NCBI GenBank assembly: GCA_965242635.1 | Contig: OZ251471.1 | Location: forward strand, 1,426,769 to 1,490,768 | Source of the DNA: Bdellovibrionales bacterium | GTDB taxonomy: Bacteria; Bdellovibrionota; Bdellovibrionia; Bdellovibrionales; UBA1609 | Direction of reading: 5' to 3' | Length of the DNA: 64,000 nt | Part shown: in pieces, positions 3,483 to 62,317 of the stretch | Layout: each line of letters starts with the position of its first letter | Position numbering within the stretch: position 1 is the first letter of the stretch | Translations under genes and position numbers: made by a program | Notes under the pieces: generated by a model | What the model saw: the letters and a program-made list of their open reading frames with translations, nothing else | What the model was told of the DNA's origin: nothing | Databases searched by the model: none

Positions 3483-3647
3483 AAAATCCTCATTTTCAAA
3501 GTGGCTCGGAAAATATTTCCGAACCGCTTTTTTCCTTGTGTTTCGGTGCTGTGATTGTGCTATAAAAATCCTCATTTTCAAAGTGGCTCGGAAAATATCT
3601 CCGAACCCACATTTTGGTCCAAAAAACCAATTGATAATTTTCCTGAG
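3482..3647. repeat. Left array: 2 copies of the 82/83-bp hairpin unit, ending in a 46-nt copy of the merR-proximal junction
   Basis: GTGGCTCGGAAA starts at 3501 and 3583 (82-bp period). 3601-3646 is nearly identical (one C/T mismatch) to 5236-5281. Confidence 0.9.
3503..3533 (+). terminator. Rho-independent terminator-like hairpin downstream of pepP
   Basis: GGCTCGGAAA-ATA-TTTCCGAACC (9/10 bp stem) followed by GC + T6. Confidence 0.5.
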
Positions 3648-11920: not shown

Positions 11921-12127
11921 AAAACCCTTGGGGCTGTCAAAGCCAGCTGGGCCACAGCCTCCCTCAAGCTCAAAGCTGGCCAAAAAAAACCTTCAGCCTG
12001 TCAAAGAGCGGGCACAGGCAGGCCCACAAAAAACCCTTGGGGCTGTCAAAGCCAGCTGGGTCACAGCCTCCCTCAAGCTCAAAGCTGGCCAAAAAAACCT
12101 TCAGCCTGTCAAAGAGCGGGCACAGAG
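11921..12127. repeat. 109-bp tandem repeat x ~1.9 between the sodC 3' end and the glyQS start
   Basis: CCCTTGGGGCTGTCAAAGCCAGCTGGG... starts at 11925 and 12034. Confidence 0.9.
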
Positions 12128-12726: not shown

Positions 12727-12773
12727 ATTATAACTCCTTGGTTATTTGGTTTTGGGGCCGATGGCCATGTGTC

Positions 12774-12793
12774 ATTCCCGCGAAAGCGGGAAT
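12774..12793. repeat. REP-like palindrome ATTCCCGC-GAAA-GCGGGAAT
   Basis: Perfect 8-bp stem with a GAAA loop. Same element at 23676, 23744, 23812 and 53832. Confidence 0.9.
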
Positions 12794-12973
12794 CTGGTCG
12801 TCCATTGTTATTGTGGCCAGCGGGACCCTGATTGGACATATTATTGTGGCCCTTCTTTTTTGGGGTTGCAACATATTTTTTGGGTTTGCAGACAAAAAAA
12901 CCGGCCTAACTTTAAAATGACACCTGAAAAAGGTTAAATTTTTCCCTTTTAGTCTGTCCAGCAAGCAAAGGCT

Positions 12974-13014
12974 GTGCTTGTTCGGGACGCCCACCCCGTG
13001 TGGGAGGGATTTTT
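12974..13014. repeat. ~41-nt element end, inverted partner of 15719-15760
   Basis: GTGCTTGTTCGGGACGCCCACCCCGTGTGGGAGGGATTTTTC. Its reverse complement recurs at 15.72 kb with 1 mismatch and 1 indel. Confidence 0.85.
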
Positions 13015-13020
13015 CAGGGG

Positions 13021-15255: not shown

Positions 15256-15334
15256 AATTGTTTTGTCGGCTCGATCTGCCCGGACCTTTAGAGCCAGCTT
15301 GATTCTTTTGGATAATCCAGACTTAGGGCTGGCT

Positions 15335-15553
15335 TTATTCCATGTCTTCGGCTATGGTGTTAAGGACCCTATACCAAGCTGTGATAACCCAGCCGGAGTC
15401 AGCTGGCTCTCCTTTCTCTATGTTCACTACTGTGGCTATAGCCATGGCCACCCCCAGGCAGGCCACGATGAGCAGAACATACTCCACTATCACCACCCCT
15501 TTTTTCTTTGAGAGGGGGCCTTTGACACCAGCTGATCTTTTTTGACATTTCAT
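15335..15553 (-). CDS. Possible Flp/Fap-type (class III signal) pilin-like small protein
   Basis: 'KKKGVVIVEYVLLIVACLGVAMAIA' resembles the G/xxxxEY Flp processing motif plus hydrophobic helix. No tad genes nearby. Confidence 0.45.
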   Translation of the reverse strand: MKCQKRSAGVKGPLSKKKGVVIVEYVLLIVACLGVAMAIATVVNIEKGEPADSGWVITAWYRVLNTIAEDME

Positions 15554-15718
15554 GTTTTACATCTCCCTTCGTAAGGGGAAAACACCCCAAAAGTGCGGAA
15601 CCTGCTGTCATGATCATGGCATAGCTTTAAAACAGACACAAGCAAATTGTCTTGATTATTCATAAAACCTTGAACCCATCTTATATTGGGGATATATACA
15701 ATTAGAACTTGAGACGGG

Positions 15719-15868
15719 GCGAAAAATCCCTCCCACGGGGTGGGCGTCCCGAATAAGCACCCCATTTTGCTTGTGGAGCTTAATAACAAGTTTTTCACAG
15801 GCCACCATTTATAACGGCACAAACTTTGGACATAAGTGAATTAAAGGTTTTTCACAGGCCACCATTTA
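15719..15868. repeat. Dispersed structured-element copy (inverted relative to the 53.6-kb copies), upstream of murC
   Basis: Contains GTTTTTCACAGGCCACCATTTAT twice (15790, 15847). Its reverse complement aligns with 53603-53700. Confidence 0.7.
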
Positions 15869-15891: not shown

Positions 15892-17415
15892 ATGAAAACA
15901 GCCCGGCCAAAAGTGCAAAAGCCGTCCTCACCGGCCCTTTCCCCTCCTCTTGGAGTGAGGGTGCATTTTGTGGGCATTGGGGGCATAGGCATGTGCGGGC
16001 TGGCAGAGCTCCTGCACAACTCAGGCAGTGTGGTGACAGGCAGTGACTTGGTGGAAAACCAGCAGGTCCAAAGGCTTAAAAGCCTTGGCATTCCTGTTTT
16101 CAAAGGGCACAAAAAAGCCCACTTGAGCCGGGCGGAAATAGTGGTCAAATCCAGTGCAGTTTCAGAAAGCAATGTGGAGATTCAAAGGGCCCGGTCCCAA
16201 AAAATCCCTGTGCTCCAAAGATCAGAGGCTTTGGCAGAGGTTATGCGATTGAAGCGGGGGTTGGTGGTGGCCGGAACGCATGGCAAAACCACCACCACAC
16301 ATTTACTGTCCCTTATGTTTGTCCGCAACAAAAAAGATCCCACAGTGGTTATAGGGGGTCGCTCTCACCTGTTTAAGTCCACGGCTTTTTTGGGAAAGGG
16401 GGAGTGGTTTATTGCCGAATCGGACGAAAGTGATGGAGGTTTTAAACACCTTTCCCCTGAAATAGCCCTTATCACCAATATCGATCAGGATCATGTGGAT
16501 TACTATGGTTCTTTTGAAAAACTGAAACAGGCTTTTTTGAACTTTGCTCTCAAAACCCCTTTTTATGGCACAGTGGTGGCCTGTGGGGACGATCCGGTTT
16601 TGCGAAAAATGCTGAGCACTTTAAACAGAAAAGTCATTTTTTATGGATTTAACCCCGACAATCATTTTGTGTTAAAAAAAACAGGCCCTCTCAAGTATCA
16701 GGTGTTGGGGCTTCCTGTGACGGGAAAGAGGATCTCTCATCAGTATAAAAAGCTGGGGGCTATGAATATGCCTCTTTACGGTTCCATGAACGGCTTGAAT
16801 GCGTTGGGAGCCATAGCCTCTGCCATGAGTGCCGGGCTTTCTTTTGAGGCTTGCGTGAAAAGCCTTAAAAAATTTAAAGGCATAGACCGTCGATTCCAAA
16901 AAAAAGGGGAGGCCTGTGGCATGGAATTTTACGATGATTACGCCCATCACCCCACAGAAATAAAGGCGGTGCTCTCTGCTTTCAGGGAAAAATGGGGCAA
17001 AAAAAAAAGACTGATTGTGCTGTTTCAACCTCATCGTTTTTCCCGCACCAAGGCCTGCTGGCAGGATTTTCTCACCTGTTTTGAAGAGGCCGACTGCGTG
17101 TTTTTAATGGACATTTACCCGGCAGGGGAGAGGCCTTTGAAAGGCATATCCTCGGCCACTTTGGTCAGGGAGCTGAAACACCCACTGGCTTTTTATCTGC
17201 CGGACAAGCCGGGGGAACAGGCCCTGAAAGCACAAGGTGGATTAAAGCCCGCCGGCAAAGTGGGGGGGAGCTTGACACCCAAGCCACAGATTAAGCGGGG
17301 TGAGGCACTTTCTTTGCCGGCTTTTTTGAAAAAGGGGGATGTGTTGATCACGATGGGGGCGGGATCGGTCTATAAAGAGGGGGAGAAATGGCTCTCTTTT
17401 TTTAAGGGCGATTAA
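15892..17415 (+). CDS. murC: UDP-N-acetylmuramate--L-alanine ligase
   Basis: 'VHFVGIGGIGMCGLAELL', 'VAGTHGKTTTT', 'ESDESDG', 'DDYAHHPTEI'. ATG 15892 preferred (GGAG upstream); the ORF is open from 15826. Confidence 0.9.
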   Translation: MKTARPKVQKPSSPALSPPLGVRVHFVGIGGIGMCGLAELLHNSGSVVTGSDLVENQQVQRLKSLGIPVFKGHKKAHLSRAEIVVKSSAVSESNVEIQRARSQKIPVLQRSEALAEVMRLKRGLVVAGTHGKTTTTHLLSLMFVRNKKDPTVVIGGRSHLFKSTAFLGKGEWFIAESDESDGGFKHLSPEIALITNIDQDHVDYYGSFEKLKQAFLNFALKTPFYGTVVACGDDPVLRKMLSTLNRKVIFYGFNPDNHFVLKKTGPLKYQVLGLPVTGKRISHQYKKLGAMNMPLYGSMNGLNALGAIASAMSAGLSFEACVKSLKKFKGIDRRFQKKGEACGMEFYDDYAHHPTEIKAVLSAFREKWGKKKRLIVLFQPHRFSRTKACWQDFLTCFEEADCVFLMDIYPAGERPLKGISSATLVRELKHPLAFYLPDKPGEQALKAQGGLKPAGKVGGSLTPKPQIKRGEALSLPAFLKKGDVLITMGAGSVYKEGEKWLSFFKGD

Positions 17416-17434: not shown

Positions 17435-17463
17435 TTGACTTTTTGTTCTGAATCGAGTATATT
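17435..17463 (+). promoter_or_regulatory. Candidate sigma70-type promoter
   Basis: TTGACT - 17 nt - TATATT, 20 nt after the murC stop and ~165 nt before ATG 17631. Confidence 0.4.
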
Positions 17464-17644
17464 AATCGTATTTGAAAATGCAAGGTTCCAATCTGGACAG
17501 GAGGGCAAAACCTCATCAGCGACACCCTTTTCAAAAGGCAGGACCTGCCTCGCGGGTTCTGCCTGCCCCAAGCCAGTTTGGTTTAACTTATTCTAAAGAG
17601 CAATGAAACATTTTTTTATAAAATATGGCTATGAAAAATTCCCA

Positions 17645-17658
17645 CCCCCCCCCCCCCC
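17645..17658. repeat. Homopolymeric C14 tract inside the 5' coding region of the lipoprotein gene
   Basis: Counted directly: 6 C (17645-17650) + 8 C (17651-17658). Confidence 0.95.
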
Positions 17659-17700
17659 GCACCGCGTCATAAGTGGTGGGGTTGTCTGATTGTATCTCTT

Positions 17701-19032
17701 TTGACAGCTTATGCTCTCATCAGCTGTTCAGGAGAGCCGTCCCCATCCCCTGCTCCAGTGGGAAGAAAGACCACCAAGACCATCGACCAGGAAAAACAGG
17801 AGGAAAAGTGTCAGGCCAATCAGGGCAGGCTCTGCTCAGAAGACAAAGAATGCAAAAAAATATGTGATGAGCTTTTTTCCACAAACAGCCATGAAACAGC
17901 TTGTCTGAAATTGCCTGAAGAGACAGTTTCTAATTTTGAAGAACTGCTTGAGGAAATGACAGAAAAAGGCCGGGCCGTGGATATGGATCTCCACACTTTG
18001 GAGTGCTTGTTGGACATAGACGATACAGAGTTTGCCCGTGCCATCAGGAAACTTCCTCGTGAGGAGGCTGAAAAGTTTCTGATTGAAATAGCGGAGGACA
18101 AAAATCTGGCCCGGATTTTGGAGGAGGAAGACGATGAATTTAATATTTTAAAGCAGGTTTTTTCACGGGCGGGTTTGGGGAACAGGTTGCGGGATGTTTT
18201 GACGGAGGAGCTGGAGGACGACAAGAGCTTTTTTCATATTGTGGCCGATGACGAAAATAAGCCGGCATACAAGTGGGTGGAGGAGTATGTGGAGGAGATA
18301 TGTGAGGAGAGGGGGGACACCCTGCAATGCCCCGGCAAGAAAAAGCTTGGAGCTTATTGCAAGGCTTTTTTGCAACACTACAGGTCTTATCTGTCCCGTT
18401 TTTTGTCTCAGGGGGATTTGTTTGAGGAGGACTACCGGAGTAAACTCAAGTCCGGGGGCCACAAGTGGACTGTTTCGGGTTTTAAGGATTTTTGCCGGGA
18501 TGAATACAGTGTGACTTCCTCCAGCAGTGGCAGTGGCAACGGCAATGGTGGTGGCACTCTCGTCTGCACAGCCACAAGAGGTTCCACCACTTCAGCCTGC
18601 CCCTCTTCTTCCCCTCCTTCGGAGTGCAAACTGGCGGATGTAACCCTTGCGACCGTCGGTAATCGGCATATATATACTAAATCTGGTGGGTTTACCATTC
18701 TATCCGGCGTACCCGAAGCACAGGCAGGCTCTATTGACCCACCATCTATAGATAAAATTGGACAGATTTTTCGTCTCGAAACGGGGCTAAAATCAAGAAT
18801 TATGTTAAGCAGTACTGAGATTAGTGAGCTTGCCGCCTTACCCGCCCATACTTGGTATTTGTATATGGACGGAAGACGCTATGCCATGACTCCTATGACT
18901 CGTATTGCAAATCTATTAGCGACGGTTTATCGTTTTACTTTTGCGGACCGACAAAATATCGTCGCAGGACAATACAGCATTCATCTGGCTTATGAGGATT
19001 CCAGTAACCATTGCCACTGGATCCGCCCATAA
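17701..19032 (+). CDS. Lipoprotein, acidic Cys-patterned N-domain. Its true start (ATG 17631) is out of frame across the C14 tract
   Basis: The called ORF begins inside a signal peptide ('TAYALISCSG', lipobox LISC). Deleting 1 C joins it to 'MKNSHPPPPAPRHKWWGCLIVSLL'. Pattern C-x5-C-x3-C-x12-C is shared with 54482..55636. Confidence 0.7.
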   Translation: MTAYALISCSGEPSPSPAPVGRKTTKTIDQEKQEEKCQANQGRLCSEDKECKKICDELFSTNSHETACLKLPEETVSNFEELLEEMTEKGRAVDMDLHTLECLLDIDDTEFARAIRKLPREEAEKFLIEIAEDKNLARILEEEDDEFNILKQVFSRAGLGNRLRDVLTEELEDDKSFFHIVADDENKPAYKWVEEYVEEICEERGDTLQCPGKKKLGAYCKAFLQHYRSYLSRFLSQGDLFEEDYRSKLKSGGHKWTVSGFKDFCRDEYSVTSSSSGSGNGNGGGTLVCTATRGSTTSACPSSSPPSECKLADVTLATVGNRHIYTKSGGFTILSGVPEAQAGSIDPPSIDKIGQIFRLETGLKSRIMLSSTEISELAALPAHTWYLYMDGRRYAMTPMTRIANLLATVYRFTFADRQNIVAGQYSIHLAYEDSSNHCHWIRP

Positions 19033-19258
19033 ATTTTCAAGTTTTTGGCCATTCATCTTGCTTATCAGGATTCCGATGGCCACTGTCACTATATCCGCCC
19101 CTAACTCCCTTGAGCTTTTGACTTGCGAGTTATTTCTGGTCTGCCTCAGCCACTGGATCCGCCCATAAATTTTCAAGTTTTTGGCCATTCATCTTGCTTA
19201 TCAGGATTCCAATGGCCACTGTCACTACATTCGCCCCTAACTCCCTTGAGCCTTTGAC
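19013..19258. repeat. 110-bp unit x2 (136-bp period) that begins with the gene's last 18 nt and carries silent copies of its C-terminal tail
   Basis: GCCACTGGATCCGCCCATAAATTTTCAAG... at 19013 and 19149. Tail copies at 19048-19104 and 19184-19240. Confidence 0.9.
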
Positions 19259-19540
19259 AGGCCCTCAATAACAGGGCTTTGGCCGGGGCAAAGCATGAAA
19301 AAAGCTTGCTTTCCTTCAAAAAACCTGGCTAATATAAAGTGTGACTTTATATTGGCCGGCCCCATAGCTGGCTGTGTCTTATATACTGGTCCTTCTTTTT
19401 TGCCTGTTCAAAAAGGGGTGGACGCTGTGCCCTTGAGTTACATATAAACCCAACTGGCCTTAAAAAATTATCAGCAATAGTTAAAGGGCAGAACCAAAAA
19501 GCGGGAAAAATACAGATAAAATTTTCATGGGCAACAATTT

Positions 19541-21720: not shown

Positions 21721-21825
21721 AGTTGTTTCTCCTTAAAATGACGGGCCACTGTTTAATGGCCCATAAAAAACCTCGATATTTGAGCAAGTGCCCCTTTTTT
21801 GAACAGCCTGTTTCCAAGAACTGTC

Positions 21826-21867
21826 ATTCCCACGAAAACATGCCCCAGCGTTTGCGGGGGCGGGAAT
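21826..21867. repeat. Expanded or degenerate REP copy
   Basis: GTTTCCAAGAACTGTCATTCCCACGAAAACATGCCCCAGCGTTTGCGGGGGCGGGAAT. The left arm is identical to the copy at 27035-27057. Confidence 0.7.
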
Positions 21868-21888
21868 GTGGCCCGAAAAAAACCTTTT

Positions 21889-22644
21889 TCAGAGGCGATC
21901 GTAGTCCACCTCAAAAAGCCGGTAATCAATATTGTATCTTGTGTCCCAAAGGTGTTCTCTTTTCTCTTCCACTTCGTTTTTGATCTTGTTCAGCTGAACA
22001 TGATCACAGTTTTCCTGCTCCGCTTTTCCTATAATAAGCAACACCCCCAAGCGACTGTCAGGGAACTCTGTCATGGTGTCTATGTATTCAGTCAGAGAAG
22101 GGCAGGTGGCAAAAAAATCCGCTTTTTTGAGTGCGTTTACAAAAGTAAGCTGGTCTGTTTGTTGCTTGAGCTGGCATGTCAGGGAAAAAGCTTGATACGA
22201 CCTTTTATGCTCTTCATACATCCGCCATTCATCAGAAGATTCAGAGCTTTTGGGAAAGAGGGGCGGAGGTGGAACTTCATACATCAGCCATGCAAGAGAA
22301 GATTCAGAGCAACAGTTATTAAAGTCTATGGCCATTTGCATAAGCCGGTTCTTTACACTGTCTGTATAGTTTTTATGGATGGCCAAATGCCCGGCCAAAT
22401 CACTGATGGGAGGACCACATGGATAGGCCCCGGACTGTATGTCATAAAAAAACAGGTTGCCTTGGATCGGAATCCCAATTTCTGGCTGGCCATAGCTATT
22501 CTCTTTAAGGCAGATTTCACCCTTGGGACAGGTTCCATTTTTGAGTGTCCCTGTTGTGCGTGCTTCCCCCTCCTCCGCCATGGCCGGGAGGGCAAAGAAA
22601 CAGGCCATAAGGCCCAAGAGCAGAAGGTTCATTATTTTTCTCAT
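21889..22644 (-). CDS. Secreted hypothetical protein
   Basis: Signal peptide 'MRKIMNLLLLGLMACFFALPAMAEEGE'. Preferred over the antisense ORF 21799..22911. Confidence 0.55.
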   Translation of the reverse strand: MRKIMNLLLLGLMACFFALPAMAEEGEARTTGTLKNGTCPKGEICLKENSYGQPEIGIPIQGNLFFYDIQSGAYPCGPPISDLAGHLAIHKNYTDSVKNRLMQMAIDFNNCCSESSLAWLMYEVPPPPLFPKSSESSDEWRMYEEHKRSYQAFSLTCQLKQQTDQLTFVNALKKADFFATCPSLTEYIDTMTEFPDSRLGVLLIIGKAEQENCDHVQLNKIKNEVEEKREHLWDTRYNIDYRLFEVDYDRL

Positions 22645-22835: not shown

Positions 22836-23657
22836 TCACTTTACGGCTCTGGTGGAGATCACCTGTGGCATTATGGAGTCCAGAGGTTCTTTCTCATCCT
22901 TTCCCCAATAAGTTTCATAAAGCCCTGTTATTTTAAATCCGGCCTCTGTCTGTCCGCCTATCAGGTCTGTCAGGCTGTGGCTGAACTCAAAACCATGCTC
23001 CCCTTTTTTTATTTTGGATTTTATGTCCTGAGCACTTAAGGATTCCAGGTCAGAGTAAGGAATTTTATGGATCATTTTCATCTCCCCTTTGGTTTCGTAA
23101 AGCCTCCAGTCCAAAGAGTAACAAACCGGATTGGTGAATTCTGTTACAAAAACCCCCTTGGGTTTCAAAACCCTGAAAACCTCCCTGTAAACTTTTTTTA
23201 TATTCCGGGTCCAACAGGAAGACACCCCGTTCAGAACAAAATCAAAGCTTTCATCTTTAAAAACTTGTAGATTCTCCATTTCCCCCTTTTCAATTTTGAG
23301 CTTTTCGCCTTCCTGCTGGCAGACCTCCCGGTCTTTTTTCAACTGCTCTTCGGAAAAATCAAAGGAGGTGACCTGTGCCCCTGTGGCACATAAAAGGGGT
23401 ATTTGCTGGCCACCGGCCAAGGCCAGGCCCAACACACTCAAGCCCTTCCAGCTCTCAGGTTGCCAGGCACGGGGCATAATATCCAGCTGACCCTGTCGGG
23501 CTTTTTCCACTAACTCTTTGGACACTTTTCGGCTCCAGGGGCCTTCGGCCCTGGACCATTCGTTCCAAAACTTCCGGTTGGACTCTATATAATCGATCAT
23601 GGCCTTTTCCTGCATGTTCAGCCTGTCCTGAATAAATCCCTTTTCTTCCACCGTCAT
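22836..23657 (-). CDS. Class I SAM-dependent methyltransferase
   Basis: Motif I-like 'VLGLALAGGQQIPLLCATGAQVTSFDFSEEQL'. Motif post-I/II 'FDFVLNGVS', 'LKPKGVFV'. Confidence 0.7.
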   Translation of the reverse strand: MTVEEKGFIQDRLNMQEKAMIDYIESNRKFWNEWSRAEGPWSRKVSKELVEKARQGQLDIMPRAWQPESWKGLSVLGLALAGGQQIPLLCATGAQVTSFDFSEEQLKKDREVCQQEGEKLKIEKGEMENLQVFKDESFDFVLNGVSSCWTRNIKKVYREVFRVLKPKGVFVTEFTNPVCYSLDWRLYETKGEMKMIHKIPYSDLESLSAQDIKSKIKKGEHGFEFSHSLTDLIGGQTEAGFKITGLYETYWGKDEKEPLDSIMPQVISTRAVK

Positions 23658-23843
23658 CCCTTTTCTTCCCCTGTCATTCCCGCGAAAGCGGGAATCTGGT
23701 CGTTTCCCTTTTCATTGACCGTCATTCCTTTTCTTTCACTGTCATTCCCGCGAAAGCGGGAATCTGGTCGTTTCCCTTTTCATTGACCGTCATTCCTTTT
23801 CTTTCACTGTCATTCCCGCGAAAGCGGGAATCTGGTCATTCCC
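23658..23843. repeat. 68-bp tandem repeat x ~2.7, each unit containing one REP hairpin
   Basis: CTGTCATTCCCGCGAAAGCGGGAATCTGGTC starts at 23671, 23739 and 23807. Confidence 0.95.
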
Positions 23844-24053
23844 TTGAGAATAAATGACTATTTTAGCTTGAATTGGTTTTTTCAGGATAGACTGTTGAAT
23901 TTTGCTTTTTAGCACTGATTTGTCAAGACCAAAGTGTTGTATTACCATGCCCAAGTATGTTAGAGTGTTTACAACACTTTGAATTAAGAAGAAACCTTCA
24001 AAGGGTGTCAAAAAAAGGGGGTTTGTCAAACCCTTGTGTTCAAAGTCCGTGCC

Positions 24054-25306: not shown

Positions 25307-25469
25307 GATATATTTGACCAAAATCTCCCCCAGGCGAACCTCCATCTCATCCATAATATTATAATTGTCATACTACGCCATTTGTATTGATATGGCAACA
25401 GCCGGCTTTTTTGGAGCAAAATCCAAAAAAAGCTTGACTTTTTTGGATTATTGTCCAATATTATCCAAT

Positions 25470-26621
25470 ATGCACTCAAATTCCTTCTCCCGCTCAAGTC
25501 AGGCTTTTTTGTTAAAAGACCTGAAAAAGAAGATGGTTTTTTTGACCGGCCCCCGGCAAACAGGTAAAACCTGGCTTGCCAGACAGCTGATGAAACATTA
25601 CAAAAATCCTCTTTATCTCAACTATGATTCCCTTAAGGACCAGAAACTGATTTATGAACAATCCTGGCCAGAATCCTGTGATTTGATTATCTTTGATGAA
25701 ATCCACAAAATGGATCAATGGAAAAACCACCTCAAAGGGGTTTTTGACACGCGTCCTCACCAACAACATATTTTGGTGACAGGCAGTGCAAGGCTTGAGC
25801 ATATCAGCCGATCGGGCGATTCTTTGGCTGGTCGTTATTTATCTCATACTCTTTTGCCTTTTTCGCTTTTTGAACTCAGAAAGAGCGTGCCCGACTTCCC
25901 CTTTCAAAAACTTTTGGAAAGAGGGGGATTTCCAGAACCTCTTTTACTTTCTGAAGATGACAATTCAGCATGGAGATGGCGGGAGCAGTATCTTTTCTCT
26001 CTGATAAGGGAGGATATTCCTGATTTTAAAAGCTTTCAAAACTATAAAAAACTGGAAACTCTTTTGTTTCTGCTTAAAGAGCAGGTGGGCTCCCCTGTAT
26101 CTGTTCAGTCTCTGGCACTCACTTTAAAGGTGGATCATAAAACGATTATGAGGTATTTGTCTGTTTTGGAGGATCTGTTTATTGTGTTTTCCGTTCCTGC
26201 TTTCTCCAAAACCATCACTCGCTCTCTCTCCAAACAAAAGAAAATATATTTTTACGATTTTGCCTTTATGGATTCAGCGGATAAAGGAAAAAAGCTTGAG
26301 AACCTGGTGGCTTTGCATTTGTTAAAAAAGTCCCTCTTTTTAAAAGAAACTTGCCCCAGGGAGGCTTCCACTTTATATTATTTGAGAACAAAAGATCAAA
26401 AGGAAGTGGATTTTTTGTTGGTGAAAGGCCGGGCCCCTCAGCTTATGGTGGAGGTTAAGACAGCAGAGGTGGCTTTCAGCAAAAGCCTGATCTATTTTTA
26501 TGACCGATATAATATCAAGGGGGTTCAGTTGTCTTTGAACCTTAAGAGGCCCCAACAAATAAAGGGCCGGAAAATTTTTTCTGAGGACTTGGAAACTTTT
26601 TTATTAAACCTTAAGGTGTGA
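25470..26621 (+). CDS. AAA ATPase of the AAA_14 + DUF4143 type (second copy, divergent)
   Basis: Walker A 'LTGPRQTGKTWLA', Walker B 'LIIFDEIH'. ORF open from 25365. Confidence 0.8.
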   Translation: MHSNSFSRSSQAFLLKDLKKKMVFLTGPRQTGKTWLARQLMKHYKNPLYLNYDSLKDQKLIYEQSWPESCDLIIFDEIHKMDQWKNHLKGVFDTRPHQQHILVTGSARLEHISRSGDSLAGRYLSHTLLPFSLFELRKSVPDFPFQKLLERGGFPEPLLLSEDDNSAWRWREQYLFSLIREDIPDFKSFQNYKKLETLLFLLKEQVGSPVSVQSLALTLKVDHKTIMRYLSVLEDLFIVFSVPAFSKTITRSLSKQKKIYFYDFAFMDSADKGKKLENLVALHLLKKSLFLKETCPREASTLYYLRTKDQKEVDFLLVKGRAPQLMVEVKTAEVAFSKSLIYFYDRYNIKGVQLSLNLKRPQQIKGRKIFSEDLETFLLNLKV

Positions 26622-27055
26622 CTGTCAGGCAGTTCGGCCTTTTCGAAATCCCACCTTCACCTCCACATTCTCATTTTTGAACGTACTCTTTTGCCCTTCC
26701 AAAGTCTAACTTTCACAAAAAAAAGGGCAAAAGTCAAAATACCTTACTACCGGCATGTTTATATTTTGACACTTTTTGGATATATTTGGACAAAATGCCA
26801 GCCTATTGTCTGAGGTGCATCAAATTATTTGCCACATCTGAAATCTCAAAAAACATTTTTTAGAGCAAAAAGAGCAAAACCACTTTTTTTTCAGGACCTG
26901 TGCCCTGTTTTTTATTTTTCATAATAATACTTGGCTCCAAAGGTCTGGGATGTCCTCCATTTTTGCATGCCTTATTAAGTGGTCGGTCCTGAAAAACCTG
27001 ACATTTTGAGCAAATGGTCCTTTTTCAGACAGTTTGTTTCCAAGAACTGTCATTC

Positions 27056-27145
27056 CCGCGAAAGCTGGCCGGTTATGATGAGTGCGTCGAAGCTTGCAAA
27101 GCAGACGGTTATGATTGTGACGGTTGCAGGAATGCCTGTAAATAA
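27056..27145 (+). pseudogene. 3' fragment of a third Cys-rich lipoprotein paralogue, truncated by a REP element
   Basis: Translates to 'RKLAGYDECVEACKADGYDCDGCRNACK*', compared with 'RKLAGFGTCVEACLDERLPNFGCRADCK' in 27232..27540. A REP half-site abuts at 27035-27066. Confidence 0.5.
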
Positions 27146-38870: not shown

Positions 38871-40487
38871 ATGTCTTCACTGATCAGCAAAAAGCCACAA
38901 AAAGCAGAGAAGTCCGCTCTGCTGATGTCCACCGGCACCTTCATATCCCGTGTTCTGGGGCTTTTCAGGGACATGGCGATAGGGGCTTTTTTTTCCCGAA
39001 CAGAGACAGACGCCTTCTTTGTGGCTTTTCGAATCCCCAATTTTTTTCGCCGTTTTATAGGGGAAGGGGCCCTTTCCATAAGTTTTATCCCTGTTTTTGT
39101 CCAGTGCCTTGCCCCCTCTTCAGAAGGGGCTGTTTCTGAACAGGATCCCACACAAAGGGCGAAAAACCTGATGAACAGTGTCTACACCCTTTTACTGCTT
39201 CTGGTGGCGAGCCTGACTGTGGGGGGCATTTTGTGCATGGATCCTCTGTTTCACTGGCTGTTTGCCGACACCCCTTTTGCTCAGGTGGAGCAAAAAATGC
39301 AGATGACGATTCTCATGGCCCGTTTGTTGTTTGTGTATTTGTTTTTGGTGACTTTATACGCGTATTTTATGGGTATCGCGAATGCCCTGGGGAGCTTTTT
39401 TATCCCTGCTTTGGCCCCCGCTTTTCTCAATATTTTTATCATTGTGTTTGCTTTTTTGCCAAAGGACACAGTGCCCTTTCCTCCTTTGCTTTTGTGTTAT
39501 GGCGTGCTGGCGGGCGGTTTTTTTCAGGTGGTTTTGACCGCTTTTTTGCTTTATCGGTTGGGTTTTTTACCCCTGCCTGTTCTTTCTTTTTCCCATAAAG
39601 ATCTTGGGCTTATGCTCAGTCGTTTTGGCCCTGGGCTTTTGGGGGTGGGGGGCTTTGCCATTATTGGCCTTATGAACCTTTATTTTGCCGGCTGGCTGGA
39701 GGAGGGGGCACACACTTATATTTATTATGGGGATCGCCTGCTGGAGCTTCCCCGCTCTCTTATAGCCATCAGCATGGGGACGGCTCTTTTGCCTCAGCTC
39801 TCATGGTTTTCTGCCAGAGGCCAAAGGGCGGAAATGCTGAAAACCGCCTCTCAACAAAGGGAACTGCTTTTGTTTTTGGTTTTGCCCTGTGCGGTGGCTT
39901 TTTATTTTATGGGCACACCCATTATAGAGGTTTTGTTTCAAAGGGGGCGGTTTGATGCTGTTACAGCGGAGAACACCGCTTTGGTTTTAAAAATCTATTC
40001 TGTTTTACTCATCAGCTCCTCTCTTTCGCGGGTATTGGCCACTTGTTTTTACGCGGTCAAAAACACCTGGTATCCAGCCCTTTGTTCTGCCCTTTATATG
40101 TTGTTTCATGCTTTGCTGGTGGGTTATATGACAAAGGCTTTGGCTTTGCCGGGGTTGGTGGGGGCGACCGTTATATCCAATGTGTTTTTTATGTGTTTGC
40201 TAATGGGGGCTTATCCTTTTTTTGTGGGCCGGTTTTATGTGGCCAGTACTCTCAAACAGCTGGTTTGTTTTTTGCCGGGGCTTTTGATTTTGGCTTTTTA
40301 CTTGAGTTTTGCCTTTGATTTTTCCAAAGCTCTGTTTCAAACATGGGCCGGTGATCTTTTGGCGGGGGTTTTGGCTTTGATTTTTGTGGTTTTGTCTTCG
40401 TGTGTGCTTTATTTTTTGGTAGGGGCTTTCTTTCGTCTCTCTTCCGTCAAACAGTGCTTAAATCTCATCAGAAAAAAAAGAGGCTGA
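38871..40487 (+). CDS. murJ: Lipid II flippase MurJ (MviN)
   Basis: 'STGTFISRVLGLFRDMAIGAFFSRTETDAFFVAFRIPNFFRRFIGEGALS', plus 12 or more TM segments. Confidence 0.9.
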   Translation: MSSLISKKPQKAEKSALLMSTGTFISRVLGLFRDMAIGAFFSRTETDAFFVAFRIPNFFRRFIGEGALSISFIPVFVQCLAPSSEGAVSEQDPTQRAKNLMNSVYTLLLLLVASLTVGGILCMDPLFHWLFADTPFAQVEQKMQMTILMARLLFVYLFLVTLYAYFMGIANALGSFFIPALAPAFLNIFIIVFAFLPKDTVPFPPLLLCYGVLAGGFFQVVLTAFLLYRLGFLPLPVLSFSHKDLGLMLSRFGPGLLGVGGFAIIGLMNLYFAGWLEEGAHTYIYYGDRLLELPRSLIAISMGTALLPQLSWFSARGQRAEMLKTASQQRELLLFLVLPCAVAFYFMGTPIIEVLFQRGRFDAVTAENTALVLKIYSVLLISSSLSRVLATCFYAVKNTWYPALCSALYMLFHALLVGYMTKALALPGLVGATVISNVFFMCLLMGAYPFFVGRFYVASTLKQLVCFLPGLLILAFYLSFAFDFSKALFQTWAGDLLAGVLALIFVVLSSCVLYFLVGAFFRLSSVKQCLNLIRKKRG

Positions 40488-40650
40488 CCGCCGTGTCGGC
40501 GGGGACAAAAGGTAAACTCTGTCTTTCCAAAGACACTCTGATGAAATAAAATCACCAAAAAAAAGAGGCTGACCGCCGTGTCGGCGGGGACAAAAGGTAA
40601 ACTCTGTCTTTCCAAAGACACTCTGATGAAACAAAATCACCAAAAAAAAA
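40472..40650. repeat. 85-bp tandem repeat x2 plus a partial third copy
   Basis: AAAAAAAAGAGGCTGACC starts at 40472, 40557 and 40642. The first copy contains the murJ stop. Confidence 0.9.
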
Positions 40651-40677
40651 GAGGCTGACCTTTTTGGATCAGCCTCT
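40642..40677 (-). terminator. Rho-independent terminator of the porin gene
   Basis: AGAGGCTGA-N10-TCAGCCTCT, followed on the minus strand by T9. Confidence 0.6.
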
Positions 40678-45175: not shown

Positions 45176-45466
45176 ATGAAAATCACCTCAGTTAAAATCA
45201 ACCTGATCCCCAACGAAGGATGTTTGAAAGCTTATGCCAGCATCATTATTGATGATGAGTTTGTCCTGCATGATTTGAAAGTGATACAGACAGAGGAAAA
45301 ACGGTTTGTGGCCATGCCCAGCAAAAAGCACAAGGGCACATTCAGGGACATTGCCCATCCTCTGAACAGGGAAACCCGAAATCTTATTCAAAAAGCGGTG
45401 TTTGAGGAATACGATTATGTTTTAAGCCTGGTCAACTCCTCTGAAAGCTCCGGATCCAGTGACTAA
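45176..45466 (+). CDS. spoVG: SpoVG-family protein
   Basis: 'MKITSVKINLIPNEGCLKAYASIIIDDEFVLHDLKVIQTEEKRFVAMPSKK..FRDIAHPLNRETR'. Confidence 0.9.
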   Translation: MKITSVKINLIPNEGCLKAYASIIIDDEFVLHDLKVIQTEEKRFVAMPSKKHKGTFRDIAHPLNRETRNLIQKAVFEEYDYVLSLVNSSESSGSSD

Positions 45467-45566
45467 ACCAAACTGGTTTTGAAAAGGGTGTCGCTTGTGA
45501 GGTTTTTCCTTCCTGTCCGGGAAATTTGAACCATGAATTTTCAAACATGATCGGTATAAGTGGGGG
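45461..45566. repeat. Left copy of a ~105-bp direct repeat (spoVG stop / intergenic / fdx 3' end)
   Basis: GACTAAACCAAACTGGTTTTGAAAAGGGTGTCGCTT...TTTTCAAACATGATCGGTATAAG. Partner at 51322-51436. Confidence 0.8.
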
Positions 45567-51321: not shown

Positions 51322-51436
51322 GACTTAAACCACACTGGTTTTGAAAAGGGTGTTGCTTTTGGACTGTTTTCCTCCCACAGGGCAAATGTAAAACATGCAT
51401 TTTCAAACAAGATCAGTATAAGACCATTTTTGGGGG
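51322..51436. repeat. Right copy of the ~105-bp direct repeat (degenerate)
   Basis: GACTTAAACCACACTGGTTTTGAAAAGGGTGTTGCTT...TTTTCAAACAAGATCAGTATAAG. Confidence 0.8.
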
Positions 51437-52547: not shown

Positions 52548-52761
52548 GTGGGAGCGGAACTGCCGGACCTGATGGCTCATGGAAATACACAGGAGCAGGC
52601 TTTGAAACAGGTAAAAACGGCGGTTTGACAAGTTAAGCGAGCGATTTGACAGGCAAAACGAACGGCTTGACAAACAAAATGAGCGGTTTGACAGGCAATA
52701 TGAATTGCTTTTGAAAGAGAGAGCCTTCGAATCAGTCCTGAGTCCTGTAGGCCGGCTTTAG
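52548..52761 (+). pseudogene. Decayed remnants: HicB-like antitoxin fragment followed, in another frame, by a heptad coiled-coil fragment
   Basis: 'VGAELPDLMAHGNTQEQALKQVKTAV*' (52548-52628), then 'RFDKLSERFDRQNERLDKQNERFDRQYELLLKE..' with no start codon. Confidence 0.3.
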
Positions 52762-52938
52762 CCTTGCTCAGAATGAACTATTGTGAAAAAAACCTGTTGT
52801 TTGCGTTCAATGTTTGCAGTTAATAAGTCTGGGTTTCCATTCTGCTGGCGGACCCAAAATGACCCAAAAGGGCTGAAAATGTTCAAATCCCTCTTTTTTG
52901 TATTGACTTAATGACTTATATATGAGACATTGTCATTT

Positions 52939-53265
52939 ATGAAGCCCATTGATTTTCATCCTAAAGCTTTAAGAACCATCAGGAGTTTTTCTCCTTCTGT
53001 TCGAAAAGTGATAGGCCATGCCCTTATGGAACTGCAAAAAGGCCACAAACTCTCCATGCCTTTGTCCCGGCCTGTGAAGTTAGTGGGACCTGGTGTGGAG
53101 GAAATCAGAGGCAAGGATTCAAAAAGTATATACAGAGTCTTGTATTTGGCTCGACTGAAATACAGAATAATAGTTTTTTATGCTTTTATAAAAAAAACAC
53201 AAAAAATCCCCAAACAGGATATTAAAACAGCAAAACAAAGACTAAAGGAGGTGCTAAATGGCTAA
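52939..53265 (+). CDS. RelE/HigB-like toxin (phage Gp49-like family)
   Basis: 'MKPIDFHPKALRTIRSF..VEEIRGKDSKSIYRVLYLARLKYRIIVFYAFIKKTQKIPKQDIKTAKQRLKE'. Confidence 0.8.
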   Translation: MKPIDFHPKALRTIRSFSPSVRKVIGHALMELQKGHKLSMPLSRPVKLVGPGVEEIRGKDSKSIYRVLYLARLKYRIIVFYAFIKKTQKIPKQDIKTAKQRLKEVLNG

Positions 53266-53557
53266 AGTTAAAACAGTAAGAGCCAACACGGCCAAAGAAC
53301 TTATTAAAATGCTGGATTTATCTCCAGCGGAAGGGGCGGAACTGATTTTTCGAGGGGAGCTTAACTCGCAAATTATAAAAATTGTTCAAAGAAAGAAGCT
53401 CACTCATGCTCAGTTAGCGATATTGACAGGCAGTTCCAGAACGCGGATGACAGCACTTTTAAACAGAAATATCTCAGACATCTCTACAGATTTAATGCTG
53501 AGAGTACTGTCCACCCTTGGATATAAGCCAAGTTTGAAAATCACAAAATCAGCTTAA
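53258..53557 (+). CDS. XRE-family HTH antitoxin
   Basis: 'LTHAQLAILTGSSRTRMTALLNRNISDISTDLMLRVLSTLG'. 8-nt overlap with the toxin gene. Confidence 0.8.
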   Translation: MAKVKTVRANTAKELIKMLDLSPAEGAELIFRGELNSQIIKIVQRKKLTHAQLAILTGSSRTRMTALLNRNISDISTDLMLRVLSTLGYKPSLKITKSA

Positions 53558-53602
53558 GCGGGAAGAGGCAAGTAATAACAGCAAAACAAAGACTAAAGGA
53601 GC

Positions 53603-53786
53603 TTGTTTGAATCGCTTGTGTCCAAAGTTCGCACCGTTGAATGGCCTGTGAACAACTCTGTTGTTTTCGTTCAATAAGTCCTATGGGCAAGCTTTAGCCT
53701 TGTTCGGGACGGCCATCCGTGGCCTCAGGCCGGTCTGATCCGTCCGTGGGACGGAGCCCTCACCGGCTAAAGCCTGCCCATAGGAA
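53603..53786. repeat. ~180-bp structured element, copy 1
   Basis: Ends in a long hairpin TCCTATGGGCAAGCTTTAGCC ... GGCTAAAGCCTGCCCATAGGA, which encloses GC-rich mini-hairpins. Confidence 0.85.
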
Positions 53787-53831
53787 AATACAAATGAGCT
53801 TTCAAAGACCGCCGTTCCTGTATGCTCTGTC

Positions 53832-53851
53832 ATTCCCGCGAAAGCGGGAAT
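53832..53851. repeat. REP-like palindrome ATTCCCGCGAAAGCGGGAAT
   Basis: Perfect copy between the two structured-element copies. Confidence 0.9.
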
Positions 53852-53939
53852 CCAGTCAAAAAAACCTTTAAGTGAATTTATGTGCTTTTGGGCTTAACAA
53901 AACACACTTGGGCGATTACCAGATGGCCTGTGAAAACCC

Positions 53940-54115
53940 TGTTGTTTGAATCGCTTGTGTCCAAAGTTCGCACCGTTGAATGGCCCGTGAACAAAACCCT
54001 GTTGTTTTCGTTCAATAAGTCCTATGGGCAGGCTTTAGCCTTGTTCGGGACGGCCATCCGTGGCCTCAGGCCGGTCTGATCCGTCCGTGGGACGGAGCCC
54101 TCACCGGCTAAAGCC
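53940..54115. repeat. ~180-bp structured element, copy 2 (3' arm of the outer hairpin truncated)
   Basis: Near-identical to 53603-53775 (337-bp period). Confidence 0.85.
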
Positions 54116-54137
54116 ATAAAGGAGGATGTTATGAAAT

Positions 54138-54449
54138 ATGGAATACTTTTTATATCATGTCTTTATTATTCTTTTGGCATGCCGGGCTCCTGTTCGTTCC
54201 AAACCCGCAAGCTGTATAACAAACAGCAATTTGGAATCGAGAATAGCTGATCCCCGATGTGATGTTTTTTGGGAGGGAATCGATAAGCATTGTCAGGGCT
54301 CTCAACCTTATAGTGATTTATGTCATGAAAAATGGGATGAAGCATTAAAAAAATGCAATAAGTTAATGGGGATAGAATCCTCTCCTCCCACTTTTATTTT
54401 TTTGTCAAAGGACAAAGGTTGTAAAATTAGCAATAGTCCAGACCCTTGA
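54138..54449 (+). CDS. Small Cys-rich hypothetical (possible lipoprotein); start or frame uncertain
   Basis: 'HVFIILLAC' lipobox-like. The strong AAGGAGG RBS is better spaced for ATG 54131, which is in another frame and gives only 39 aa. Confidence 0.4.
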   Translation: MEYFLYHVFIILLACRAPVRSKPASCITNSNLESRIADPRCDVFWEGIDKHCQGSQPYSDLCHEKWDEALKKCNKLMGIESSPPTFIFLSKDKGCKISNSPDP

Positions 54450-55636: not shown

Positions 55637-55810
55637 ACTCTCTTTATCGGCAAGCCGAAAAGCAAAATAAAGCAAAAAACATGGTTTTTCAGTGGCGATT
55701 GCCTGATGAGATAATGGCTTTTAAGCGGGTGCACTTTTGCCGGCCTTTTTCTGGCCAAAAGTCTGGCTGTCTTTGACCAACACAAAAATAAGCTGATCCA
55801 ATTTGCCATT

Positions 55811-55948
55811 GACAGCCTCAAACTGTCTGCCGACACCCTCAAACTGCTGATTTGTGTCTTTTTTAATGGTTTCAAATTGCTTGTTGACAGCCTCAAACTG
55901 CCTGCCGACAGCTTCAAACTGTCTGCCGACAGCTTCAAACTGCCTGGA
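55811..55948. repeat. 21-bp repeats (5 copies, one interruption) upstream of nfeD. On the minus strand they would encode 'RQFEAVG' heptads
   Basis: GACAGCCTCAAACTGTCTGCC-type units at 55811, 55832, 55886, 55907 and 55928. Confidence 0.85.
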
Positions 55949-62011: not shown

Positions 62012-62317
62012 ATGATTGTGCATCGCTGGCAAGCCCCTGCCCTGCCCACAGCAGAGCAAATTTTAAAGATTTTTGAGCGGGAGGGCCTGAAACCCACAGA
62101 GGAAATCTATCAACCGGGAGAGGAAGTCAAAACCCACCACCATCCCTTTGATGAGGTCCGGATGCTGGTCAAAGGCTCTCTCATGATCGATATCGCCGGA
62201 AACCGCCTCCTGCTGAGAGAAGGGGATAAAATTATCATCCCCTCCAATACCCGGCACTCCAAAAAAGCCCAGGGGCAAAACCCCTGTATCTGTATATGCT
62301 CCTACAAAGCCTTCTAA
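62012..62317 (+). CDS. Cupin-domain protein
   Basis: 'EEVKTHHHPFDEVRMLVKGSLMIDIAGNRLLLREGDKIIIPSNTRHS' (cupin_2 pattern). Confidence 0.7.
   Translation: MIVHRWQAPALPTAEQILKIFEREGLKPTEEIYQPGEEVKTHHHPFDEVRMLVKGSLMIDIAGNRLLLREGDKIIIPSNTRHSKKAQGQNPCICICSYKAF

What the first reader, a model, noticed from the sequence alone, without database searches (positions are those of the whole stretch)
53579..54115. Duplicated ~180-bp element ending in a long perfect hairpin; related copies lie upstream of murC and next to sodC
Copies lie at 53603-53786 and 53940-54115 (337-bp period, with a REP hairpin between them). Each contains ATGGCC(T/C)GTGAA..CTGTTGTTT sub-repeats. Each then has a ~105-nt module: TCCTATGGGCA(A/G)GCTTTAGCC, an interior with GGCCATCCGTGGCC, GGCCTCAGGCC and CCGTCCGTGGGACGG mini-hairpins, and then GGCTAAAGCCTGCCCATAGGA. 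A reverse-oriented relative lies at 15719-15868, with the motif GTTTTTCACAGGCCACCATTTAT twice. A 41-nt end fragment lies at 12974-13014. The combination of conserved outer stem, GC-rich multi-hairpin interior and dispersal fits a MITE or a structured small RNA family. I cannot match it to a known RNA class by eye.
Basis: seen in the sequence. Interest (0 to 1): 0.55.

Follow-up and report, generated by a model that had tools for sequence, protein, structure and literature searches.

The report
Palindromic intergenic repeat family in Bdellovibrionota
The duplicated element is real: two neighbouring copies of a non-coding, hairpin-forming repeat that recurs in rearranged forms elsewhere in this small Bdellovibrio-like genome and in two related uncultured genomes, and it is most likely a REP/MITE-type mosaic repeat rather than a gene, although its stem co-varies and its core is unusually conserved.

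Summary
Copy A (53603-53785) and copy B (53923-54115) are 97% identical over 174 nt. A carries a 21-bp stem around a 65-nt, 69% G+C core; B's right arm is cut to 10 nt. Diverged or partial relatives lie at 15637-15868(-), 12957-13015(+) and 52743-52812(+).

No Rfam family, tRNA, plasmid, phage, viral, GTDB or JGI match was found. No transposase, integrase or reverse transcriptase is encoded in the 64 kb.

Two copies turned up in related uncultured Bdellovibrionota genomes:
- L016 has the same core (64/65 nt). Its arms differ at 12 of 42 positions, with 5 clean compensatory pair changes.
- L020 has other arms, still paired, and a core of only 32 nt.

A short motif (M1, GGCCTGTGAAAAAC) brackets these hairpins, and also brackets REP hairpins, in direct or inverted order. 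Copies are absent from orthologous sites in relatives. Their orientation relative to genes is inconsistent, and no promoter or terminator accompanies them.

Best reading: a lineage-specific composite palindromic repeat of the REPIN/MITE/BIME kind, maintained as a hairpin and reshuffled module by module. A new structured RNA is not excluded (about 0.15-0.2). Whole-genome copy census and RNA-seq are missing.

The parts
53603..53678 (+). Copy A, 5' part: tail of a lost first sub-repeat (TTGTTT, 53603-08), spacer M2 (53609-40), sub-repeat M1 (53641-66), linker M3 (53667-78).
   Evidence: The same modules are found in copy B.
53679..53785 (+). Copy A, complete hairpin module: left arm 53679-99, 65-nt core 53700-64 (69% G+C, three mini-hairpins), right arm 53765-85.
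   Evidence: 20/21 Watson-Crick pairs, -62.8 kcal/mol, z = -6.1.
53830..53855 (+). REP-type hairpin TCATTCCCGCGAAAGCGGGAATCCAG between A and B. It belongs to a separate repeat family of the window.
   Evidence: A related REP lies in the syntenic spacer of L016 (7030-7065).
53923..54019 (+). Copy B, 5' part: M1 (53923-47), M2 (53948-79), M1 (53980-54007), M3 (54008-19).
54020..54115 (+). Copy B hairpin module, truncated: left arm 54020-40, core 54041-54105 identical to A's, and only the first 10 nt of the right arm (54106-15).
   Evidence: It is followed directly by ATAAAGGAGG and the ORF at 54138-54449.
52743..52812 (+). Decayed unit: arm-like TCCTGTAGGCCGGCTTTAGCC + TTGCTC (52743-69), then an M1-M3-like TGTGAAAAAAACCTGTTGTTTGCGTTCAATG (52782-812).
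15637..15868 (-). Diverged full-length relative upstream of murC: two M1 copies (15790-805, 15847-62) with an M2-like spacer, then a hairpin with 25-nt arms (15751-75 / 15637-61) around a different 89-nt interior.
   Evidence: The fold z is only -1.6.
12957..13015 (+). Fragment: left arm plus the start of the core (TTGTTCGGGACGCCCACCCCGTG..). It begins right after the stop codon of the 205-aa gene.
   Evidence: It is absent from the orthologous spacer of L001.
53577..53601 (+). Exact 25-nt copy of the 3' end of the toxin gene (53226-53250). It abuts the truncated left end of copy A and marks a recombination scar.

Best explanation
A and B are two adjacent paralogous copies of a lineage-specific, non-coding, composite palindromic repeat. 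Each unit has one or two short M1 motifs (consensus A[A/G]TGG.CCTGTGAAAAAC) followed by a stem-loop module of about 107 nt. It is one of several intergenic repeat families in this roughly 2-Mb Bdellovibrionota genome.

I read it as a DNA-level selfish or mosaic repeat of the REPIN / MITE / BIME-NIME kind.
- **Spread (inferred):** the unit is copied to new intergenic sites by an enzyme acting in trans, which is not encoded in this window.
- **Maintenance (shown):** it is kept as a hairpin. Arm pairs change on both sides together.
- **Reshuffling (shown by the different module orders and cores):** recombination between shared modules (M1, arms, the junction TTRTTCGGGACG...CCCTCACC) rearranges it.
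- **Effect on neighbours (inferred, not tested):** where it is co-transcribed, as with the toxin-antitoxin operon just upstream, it would fold into a hairpin of about -60 kcal/mol. That could act as a 3' barrier or an RNase III target.
For: **Multiple copies and truncations.** The window holds several divergent and truncated copies.

**Copies in two related genomes at non-orthologous sites.**
- L016:16356-16462, 97.7% identical over 86 nt.
- L020:19301-19373.

**Hairpin maintained through change.**
- Every copy keeps 20/21 Watson-Crick pairs.
- Window versus L016 shows 5 unambiguous double substitutions.
- Counting L020, 7 to 12 of 21 pairs have compensatory changes, depending on how L020 is aligned.

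**Presence/absence.**
- The sodC-side fragment and a REP are extra relative to L001.
- The syntenic spacer in L016 is 439 nt with only a REP, against 1985 nt in the window.
- The murC copy sits where murC is inverted between the two genomes.

**M1 behaves like a terminal module.**
- It brackets the hairpin in inverted pairs in L016 and L020.
- It also brackets REP-type hairpins in L020 at about 15940-16090 and in the window at about 21750-21900, about 26980 and about 23880.
- M1-like matches: 9 against 2.3 expected.

**Suggestion of module exchange.** The distal arms of the window copy match L020 best (21 matches against 14 for L016). The core matches L016 (64/65).

**Precedent.** The REPIN literature reports hairpin-forming doublets with frequent compensatory changes and tandem clusters (PMC3116915).

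**Nothing else fits.** No coding signal and no RNA-family match.
Against: - No target-site duplication could be established. The CTACATA flanks in L020 can equally be read as part of the inverted repeat.
- No transposase, RAYT, integrase or reverse transcriptase is encoded in the 64-kb window.
- Only about 7 copies or fragments were seen in about 250 kb sampled. The genome-wide copy number is unknown.
- The best-conserved part is the core, not the ends. This is the reverse of REPINs and typical MITEs.
- The window copies have direct M1 repeats and lack the distal inverted M1.
- 97.7% identity over 86 nt, against 70-91% for orthologous coding DNA (P between 3e-6 and 1e-2), needs either recent transfer or selection on the core sequence.
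Confidence: 0.55

Rival explanations
1. It is a structured non-coding RNA: a small RNA gene or cis-acting RNA. A long co-varying closing stem would present a sequence-constrained, GC-rich four-way-junction core that binds a protein or ligand, or is catalytic.
For: - Compensatory arm changes with a nearly invariant 65-nt core (64/65) between genomes whose orthologous coding DNA is only 70-91% identical.
- Fold z-scores of -6 to -8.
- The core is 69% G+C in genomes of 42-46% G+C.
- No known Rfam family matches, so it would be new.
Against: - No promoter-like or terminator-like site sits consistently next to the copies.
- Orientation relative to flanking genes varies: same sense (A, B), antisense (L020, 12957), mixed (L016, murC copy).
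- The three core hairpins are absent from L020, whose core is 32 nt. They are replaced in the murC-side copy.
- The only core substitution (G to T in L016) breaks a pair of the third hairpin.
- G.U versus A.C asymmetry gives no strand preference.
- Truncated copies are tolerated.
- Compensatory changes are also usual in mobile REPIN hairpins.
Confidence: 0.2
2. It is a recombination site that bounds gene cassettes, like attC. The 52.6-54.5 kb spacer would then be a cassette-like array (ORF, unit, ORF, unit) assembled by a site-specific recombinase acting on the folded hairpin.
For: - Between two conserved genes the window has coiled-coil ORF fragment, decayed unit, toxin-antitoxin, unit A, REP, unit B, small lipoprotein-like ORF. 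All are on the + strand.
- ORFs abut the units. Stop codons lie inside the unit at 52760 and 53607, and a ribosome-binding site lies 3 nt after B.
- The relative has only 439 nt in this spacer.
- The structure is kept while the arm sequence varies.
Against: - There are no RYYYAAC / GTTRRRY core sites at the arm ends (read directly).
- No integrase or other recombinase is encoded in the 64 kb.
- The copies in L016, L020, at murC and at sodC are single and not in arrays.
- B's right arm is cut 11 nt short rather than at a shared crossover point.
- The core is sequence-conserved, unlike attC sites.
Confidence: 0.08
3. It is only a local tandem duplication of a 339-nt stretch, with chance resemblances elsewhere. 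There is no family and no function.
For: A and B are adjacent, in the same orientation and 97% identical.
Against: - The same module occurs in two other genomes and at three other places in the window, with E-values of 1e-12 to 1e-38.
- The junctions do not fit a simple duplication. A is cut on the left and B on the right.
Confidence: 0.05

Closest known systems
REPINs / REP elements mobilised by RAYT transposases (Bertels & Rainey 2011, PMC3116915)
   Same: - Non-coding, intergenic and about 100 nt long.
- Fold as long hairpins in ssDNA or RNA.
- Compensatory changes on both sides of the hairpin are common.
- Occur singly and as tandem clusters, and decay to singlets or fragments.
   Different: - In REPINs the two ends (REP 16-mers) are the invariant part and the spacer varies. 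Here the core is invariant and the arms vary.
- There is no consistent GTAG/CGTC tag.
- No RAYT gene was seen in the window.
- A separate REP family (ATTCCCGCGAAAGCGGGAAT) already exists in this genome.
MITEs with structured interiors, e.g. neisserial Correia elements and enterobacterial ERIC sequences (my own knowledge, not tested here)
   Same: - Imperfect palindromes of 100-150 bp in intergenic DNA.
- Different sites in different species.
- High between-species sequence conservation.
- Long and short forms that differ by internal insertions.
- Transcribed copies form RNase-sensitive hairpins.
   Different: - No sequence similarity.
- Terminal inverted repeats (M1) are present only in the L016 and L020 copies.
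- No target-site duplication or parent IS was identified.
Mosaic intergenic repeats: BIMEs of E. coli and NIMEs of Neisseria (my own knowledge)
   Same: Short modules (M1, M2, M3, arms, REP) are combined in different orders and orientations in intergenic spacers.
   Different: The module sequences are unrelated. The binding proteins known for BIMEs (IHF, gyrase, Pol I) were not tested.
Integron attC sites / CALIN arrays
   Same: - Hairpin-forming sites of 60-140 nt at the 3' side of small, often toxin-antitoxin, ORFs in one orientation.
- Structure is kept while sequence varies.
   Different: - No R''/R' core sites.
- No IntI.
- The core sequence is conserved.
- Most copies are solitary.

Membership tests
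Any Rfam RNA family | Covariance-model score at or above the family's gathering threshold. | tested here: not met
   - Whole window at gathering thresholds: only one tRNA, at 62374.
- 52600-54300 up to E=10: only sub-threshold noise.
- L016 and L020: only tRNAs.
- ARAGORN: none.
MITE | Terminal inverted repeats at the element ends. | tested here: inconclusive
   M1 occurs as an inverted pair around the hairpin in L016 (16323+, 16568-) and L020 (19276+, 19407-). The window copies A, B and the murC copy have direct M1 repeats and no distal inverted M1.
MITE | Target-site duplications flanking the insertion. | tested here: inconclusive
   L020 has CTACATA on both sides, but this can be read as part of the inverted repeat. 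None is evident for L016 or the window copies.
MITE | Small, non-coding, several copies per genome. | tested here: met
   - 145-275 nt long.
- ORF translations have no homologues.
- Five copies or fragments in 64 kb.
MITE | A parent IS or transposase with matching ends in the genome. | not testable with these tools
   None is encoded in the window. The rest of the genome could not be retrieved.
REP / REPIN | A 20-40 nt palindromic REP with a conserved GTAG or CGTC tag, paired in inverted orientation, with the ends more conserved than the spacer. | tested here: not met
   GTAG is present only in the L016 arm and the 52743 remnant, not in A, B or L020. Here the centre is conserved (64/65) and the arms vary (30/42).
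REP / REPIN | A RAYT (Y1 transposase) gene in the genome, flanked by the repeats. | not testable with these tools
   There is no Y1_Tnp hit among window ORFs of 150 aa or more. The remainder of the genome is unavailable.
Integron attC | R'' (RYYYAAC) and R' (GTTRRRY) core sites at the base of the hairpin. | tested here: not met
   The arm ends are TCCTATGGG...CCCATAGGA (A), TTCTGTTTG...CAAACAGAA (L016) and CTCCACGGG...CCCGTGGAG (L020). None has an AAC/GTT core.
Integron attC | A linked integron integrase, or an array of several such sites. | tested here: not met
   No integrase domain is found in the window. Only the 52.7-54.1 kb locus looks array-like, and the other copies are solitary.
Independent small-RNA gene | Its own promoter and terminator in a fixed position relative to the conserved structure. 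| tested here: not met
   Consensus scans find nothing consistent at A, B, the murC copy, L016 or L020. These scans cover sigma-70-type signals only.

The most novel reading that the evidence does not exclude
The 65-nt GC-rich core is a perfectly stacked four-way junction of three short hairpins, closed by a 21-bp stem that co-varies between genomes. It could be a previously undescribed structured RNA (or ssDNA) motif of uncultivated Bdellovibrionota that rides on a mobile repeat. Candidate roles are a protein-binding decoy or a small ribozyme. On this reading the 98% conservation reflects function rather than recent transfer.
Probability: 0.15. Interest if true: 0.7.

Novelty: new member of a known kind. 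Interest (0 to 1): 0.38.

Why it matters
- **An undescribed repeat system.** Full-text searches found no paper describing REP- or MITE-type repeats in Bdellovibrio or Bdellovibrionota. Sequence searches of GTDB, JGI, viral, plasmid and phage collections gave no family match, with the limits noted under what was tried. This window shows that a small, roughly 2-Mb member of the phylum is dense with several repeat families.
- **A marker of genome plasticity.** Copies sit at an accessory-gene hot spot holding a toxin-antitoxin pair, and at a spacer where murC is inverted relative to a relative genome.
- **A practical warning.** Such hairpins confuse gene callers, because start and stop codons fall inside the repeat. 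They may also confuse assemblers.
- **If the core proves to be selected as RNA,** it would be a new structured RNA class from an uncultured predatory-bacteria lineage.

Tried and rejected
**Known-family scans, all negative**
- Rfam at gathering thresholds and at E up to 10 found nothing relevant. ARAGORN found nothing.
- tRNA-like, SRP-like, Y-RNA-like, retron and DGR readings were considered. They were dropped for lack of any model hit or of a nearby reverse transcriptase.

**Retrieving the source genome failed**
- Exact-protein look-ups for the antitoxin, SodC, MurC and NfeD found nothing on record.

**Collection scans**
- GTDB genomes, arm 21-mer: 0 hits.
- GTDB genomes, M2 20-mer: one chance hit in Lactiplantibacillus.
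- JGI metagenomes, core-start pattern: 13 hits, all about 20-nt chance matches in high-GC contexts with no flanking arms.
- Viral contigs: 0 hits in three scans.
- Plasmids and phages: no match.
The core was therefore never searched against GTDB genomes.

**Fishing for copies through spurious ORFs**
- The 65-aa + frame ORF gave no candidates.
- The 49-aa - frame ORF gave only unrelated satellite-like ORFs.

**Relatives without the hairpin**
- L017, L018, L019, L021 and L022 have no hairpin copy.

**Alignment limits**
- MAFFT could not align the right arms of L020 and the murC copy. Pair counts were therefore done by script.
- The count of compensatory pairs involving L020 depends on the alignment, giving 7 to 12 of 21.

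**Functional readings rejected**
- Intrinsic terminator for A and B: rejected, because no T-run follows the hairpin on either strand. The short forms at 12990 and 15744 look terminator-like, but no gene lies upstream on their strand.
- Sigma-70 and sigma-54 promoter readings of M1: spacings do not fit.

Full report
**1. The observation**

The duplication is real. Positions 53603-53774 and 53942-54115 are 97.1% identical over 174 nt, and the repeat finder gives start-to-start spacings of 339-341 nt.

In copy A, a 21-nt left arm (53679-99) and right arm (53765-85) enclose 65 nt. They pair at 20 of 21 positions, with one A.C. The arm pattern occurs 4 times in the window against 0.01 expected.

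The whole 188-nt element gives z = -4.7 on the + strand and -6.6 on the - strand.

Some corrections are needed:
- B's right arm is cut after 10 nt. It runs into the AAGGAGG of the next ORF.
- A has lost its first sub-repeat.
- B starts at 53923.

**2. Anatomy**

A full unit reads as follows:
- M1: ATGGCCYGTGAA.A..CCTGTTGTTT
- M2: 32 nt
- M1 again
- M3: 12 nt
- left arm
- core
- right arm

The murC-side relative has the same plan on the - strand, over 15637-15868. It has two M1 copies, an M2-like spacer, and then its own 25-nt arms (80% complementary) around a different 89-nt interior. Its fold is not significant (z = -1.6).

Positions 12957-13015 are a left arm plus the start of a core, 86.7% identical to the murC copy. 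Positions 52743-52812 hold a left arm followed by M1-M3, in a different order.

All versions share the junction GC-TTRTTCGGGACG.

**3. Surroundings and organism**

The flanks are ordinary chromosome. Upstream lies a Gp49/HigB-like toxin (52930-53265) and an HTH antitoxin (53258-53557). Downstream lie a 103-aa lipoprotein-like ORF, an unknown 397-aa gene on the - strand, NfeD and HflX.

None of the window ORFs of 150 aa or more has a transposase, integrase or retron/DGR-type reverse-transcriptase domain.

MurC and NfeD place the genome among uncultured Bdellovibrionota:
- The identical proteins sit on a 1,998,056-bp contig.
- Named relatives at 60% identity or less are 'Bdellovibrionales bacterium' MAGs.

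The window carries many other intergenic repeat families.

**4. Known families**

| Search | Result |
|---|---|
| Rfam | nothing relevant |
| ARAGORN | none |
| Plasmids, phages | no match |
| Viral contigs | 0 hits |
| GTDB genomes, arm and M2 patterns | 0 hits and one chance hit |
| JGI metagenomes, core-start pattern | 13 chance hits |
| Spurious-ORF searches | empty |

**5. Copies in related genomes**

The closest retrievable relative is ENA ERZ25070167 ctg394301 (MurC 85% aa, G+C 41-42%). It has one copy at L016:16356-16462. An M1 lies just upstream (16323) and an inverted M1 downstream (16568).

A second contig from the same sample (L020, MurC 71%) has a copy at 19301-19373. Its arms are CTCCACGGGCAAAGATTAAGC / GCTTAACTTTGCCCGTGGAG. 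Its core is only 32 nt (TTATTCGGGACGGAATACCTTGGACCCTCACC). Inverted M1 copies on both sides give a 145-nt hairpin with z = -8.4.

Five further loci from relatives have none.

**6. Covariation**

Window A and L016 have the same lengths, so the comparison needs no alignment choices.
- The core is identical at 64 of 65 positions.
- The arms are identical at only 30 of 42 positions.
- Both hairpins keep 20/21 Watson-Crick pairs.
- There are five double substitutions: C-G to T-A, A-T to G-C, G-C to T-A twice, and G-C to A-T. There is also one G.U.

With L020 included, 7 to 12 of the 21 pairs show changes on both sides, depending on how L020 is aligned. The murC copy also replaces GGG/CCC with AAG/CTT.

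So the hairpin itself is what is preserved. This does not decide between an RNA and a DNA palindrome. REPINs, which are mobile DNA, show the same behaviour (PMC3116915). G.U versus A.C asymmetry points to no strand.

**7. Conservation of the core**

Orthologous coding DNA between the window and this relative is 70-91% identical, with a mean of about 81%. The 86-nt match at 97.7% is the best HSP of all. Its probability is between 3e-6 and 1e-2 under those background rates.

Either the core is selected, or it was exchanged recently. Three points bear on this:
- The one core change breaks a pair of the third hairpin.
- L020 and the murC copy lack these hairpins altogether. Both facts argue against an indispensable RNA fold.
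- The window's distal arms resemble L020 more than L016 (21 matches against 14), while the core resembles L016. This suggests module exchange, although the numbers are small.

**8. Presence and absence**

- The spacer between the 205-aa gene and sodC aligns with L001 at both ends. The window has the 12957 fragment and a REP as extra DNA.
- Between the orthologues of the 352-aa and 397-aa genes, L016 has 439 nt with a REP. The window has 1985 nt holding a coiled-coil ORF fragment, the decayed unit, the toxin-antitoxin pair, A, a REP, B and the small ORF.
- murC is inverted relative to the DoxX-sodC block between the two genomes. The murC copy lies in the spacer next to murC where the gene order differs.
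- The L016 copy sits in a roughly 4-kb block between a cupin gene and tRNAs. The window lacks this block.

**9. M1**

M1-like sites number 9 in the window against 2.3 expected. They also bracket REP-type hairpins:
- L020 at about 15940-16090.
- The window at about 21750-21900 and about 26980.
- After the REP array near 23880.

One M1-like site also lies upstream of murC in L019. M1 therefore behaves as a shared terminal module of several composite repeats.

**10. Tests of the rivals**

*Small-RNA gene.* No consistent promoter or terminator is found. Orientation relative to neighbours is same-sense for A and B, antisense for L020 and 12957, and mixed for L016 and the murC copy.

*attC-like site.* The gene-unit-gene-unit layout at 52.6-54.5 kb is suggestive. 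However, there are no RYYYAAC/GTTRRRY cores and no integrase, and the other copies are solitary.

*Plain duplication.* This is contradicted by the copies elsewhere.

**11. Conclusion**

The element is a new, lineage-restricted member of the known class of bacterial palindromic or mosaic intergenic repeats.
- **Shown:** dispersal, truncation, insertion polymorphism, a maintained hairpin, and modular rearrangement.
- **Inferred:** mobilisation in trans, and any effect on neighbouring transcripts.
- **Open:** why the core is so well conserved. A structured RNA remains possible at about 0.15-0.2.

The main gaps are the genome-wide census, a search of the core against all genomes, and transcript data.

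Noticed in passing
window 1920-2001, 15532-15593, 17465-17536, 45464-45560, 51326-51422; also L017:15904-15999, L018:14132-14227, L020:7185-7263: A separate dispersed family of about 95 nt with 5 copies in the window, 76-85% identical. It is conserved at 76-79% in more distant relatives. Its consensus is TAAACCAAACTGGTTTTGAAAAGGGTG.CGCTTTTGAGGTTTTTTCCTCC...GAAACATGAAATTTCAAACAAGATCAGTATA. It often starts right after a stop codon and contains an RBS-like GGAGAT plus a 5-8 codon mini-ORF (MKFQTRSV-like). At 17446-17474 a near-consensus TTGACT-17-TATATT promoter sits on the opposite strand. No Rfam match. It could be a leader, an sRNA or a promoter cassette.
   Followed up: partly
window 53226-53250 and 53577-53601: An exact 25-nt duplicate of the toxin gene's 3' end flanks the antitoxin gene. 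In the second copy the reading frame ends (..TAKQRLKELV*) with a stop codon inside the first bases of element A. This looks like a recombination scar from a second toxin gene.
   Followed up: partly
window 52612-52762 (+): A coiled-coil ORF fragment without a start codon (RFDRQNERLDKQNERFDRQYELLLKERAFESVLSPVGRL*). Its stop codon lies inside the arm-like sequence at 52743-63. Related coiled-coil repeat genes neighbour the element in L016 (239-aa, 400-aa, 167-aa and 176-aa genes) and lie at window 55724-55948(-).
   Followed up: partly
window 12770-12801, 23637-23845, 27047-27068, 53830-53855, about 21820; L016:6990-7065; L020:15970-16010: A REP-type hairpin family, ATTCCC-N8-GGGAAT (ATTCCCGCGAAAGCGGGAAT). 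It includes a 68-nt tandem array of three at 23637-23845. It resembles the neisserial dRS3 repeat in form, although the host is a Bdellovibrionota lineage.
   Followed up: partly
window 3482-3646 and 4956-5281; 11921-12125; 19013-19258; 27190-27284/27552-27645; 40472-40660: Further intergenic tandem or dispersed repeats of 83-110 nt at 84-98% identity. The genome is unusually rich in repeats for its size of about 2 Mb.
   Followed up: no
window 15256-15868 versus L001 9968-12250: murC is inverted relative to the DoxX-205aa-sodC block between this genome and its closest retrievable relative. The window also has a pentapeptide-repeat gene (14314-15255) that L001 lacks at that place.
   Followed up: partly
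window 17644-17660: A homopolymeric C run of about 16 nt lies in the spacer upstream of the 443-aa gene at 17701. It is a possible phase-variation tract.
   Followed up: no
window 54126-54140: Three ATGs follow the AAGGAGG after copy B. The one at 54131 opens a short ORF of about 35 codons. The one at 54138 opens the 103-aa ORF, which has a lipobox-like LLAC. Which of them is used is unclear.
   Followed up: no
L016 13874-17844: The block GST, 244 aa, 239 aa, element, 400 aa lies between the cupin gene and three tRNA genes. It is absent from the window, where cupin (62012-62314) is followed directly by a tRNA (62374). It looks like a tRNA-adjacent variable island.
   Followed up: partly
window 9395-10597, 25365-26621; L001 20653-; L019 1-1008; L020 17381-18490; L022 1470-2240: Multiple AAA_14 + DUF4143 ATPase genes recur near repeat-rich spacers in all these genomes. 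Any link to the repeats is unknown.
   Followed up: no
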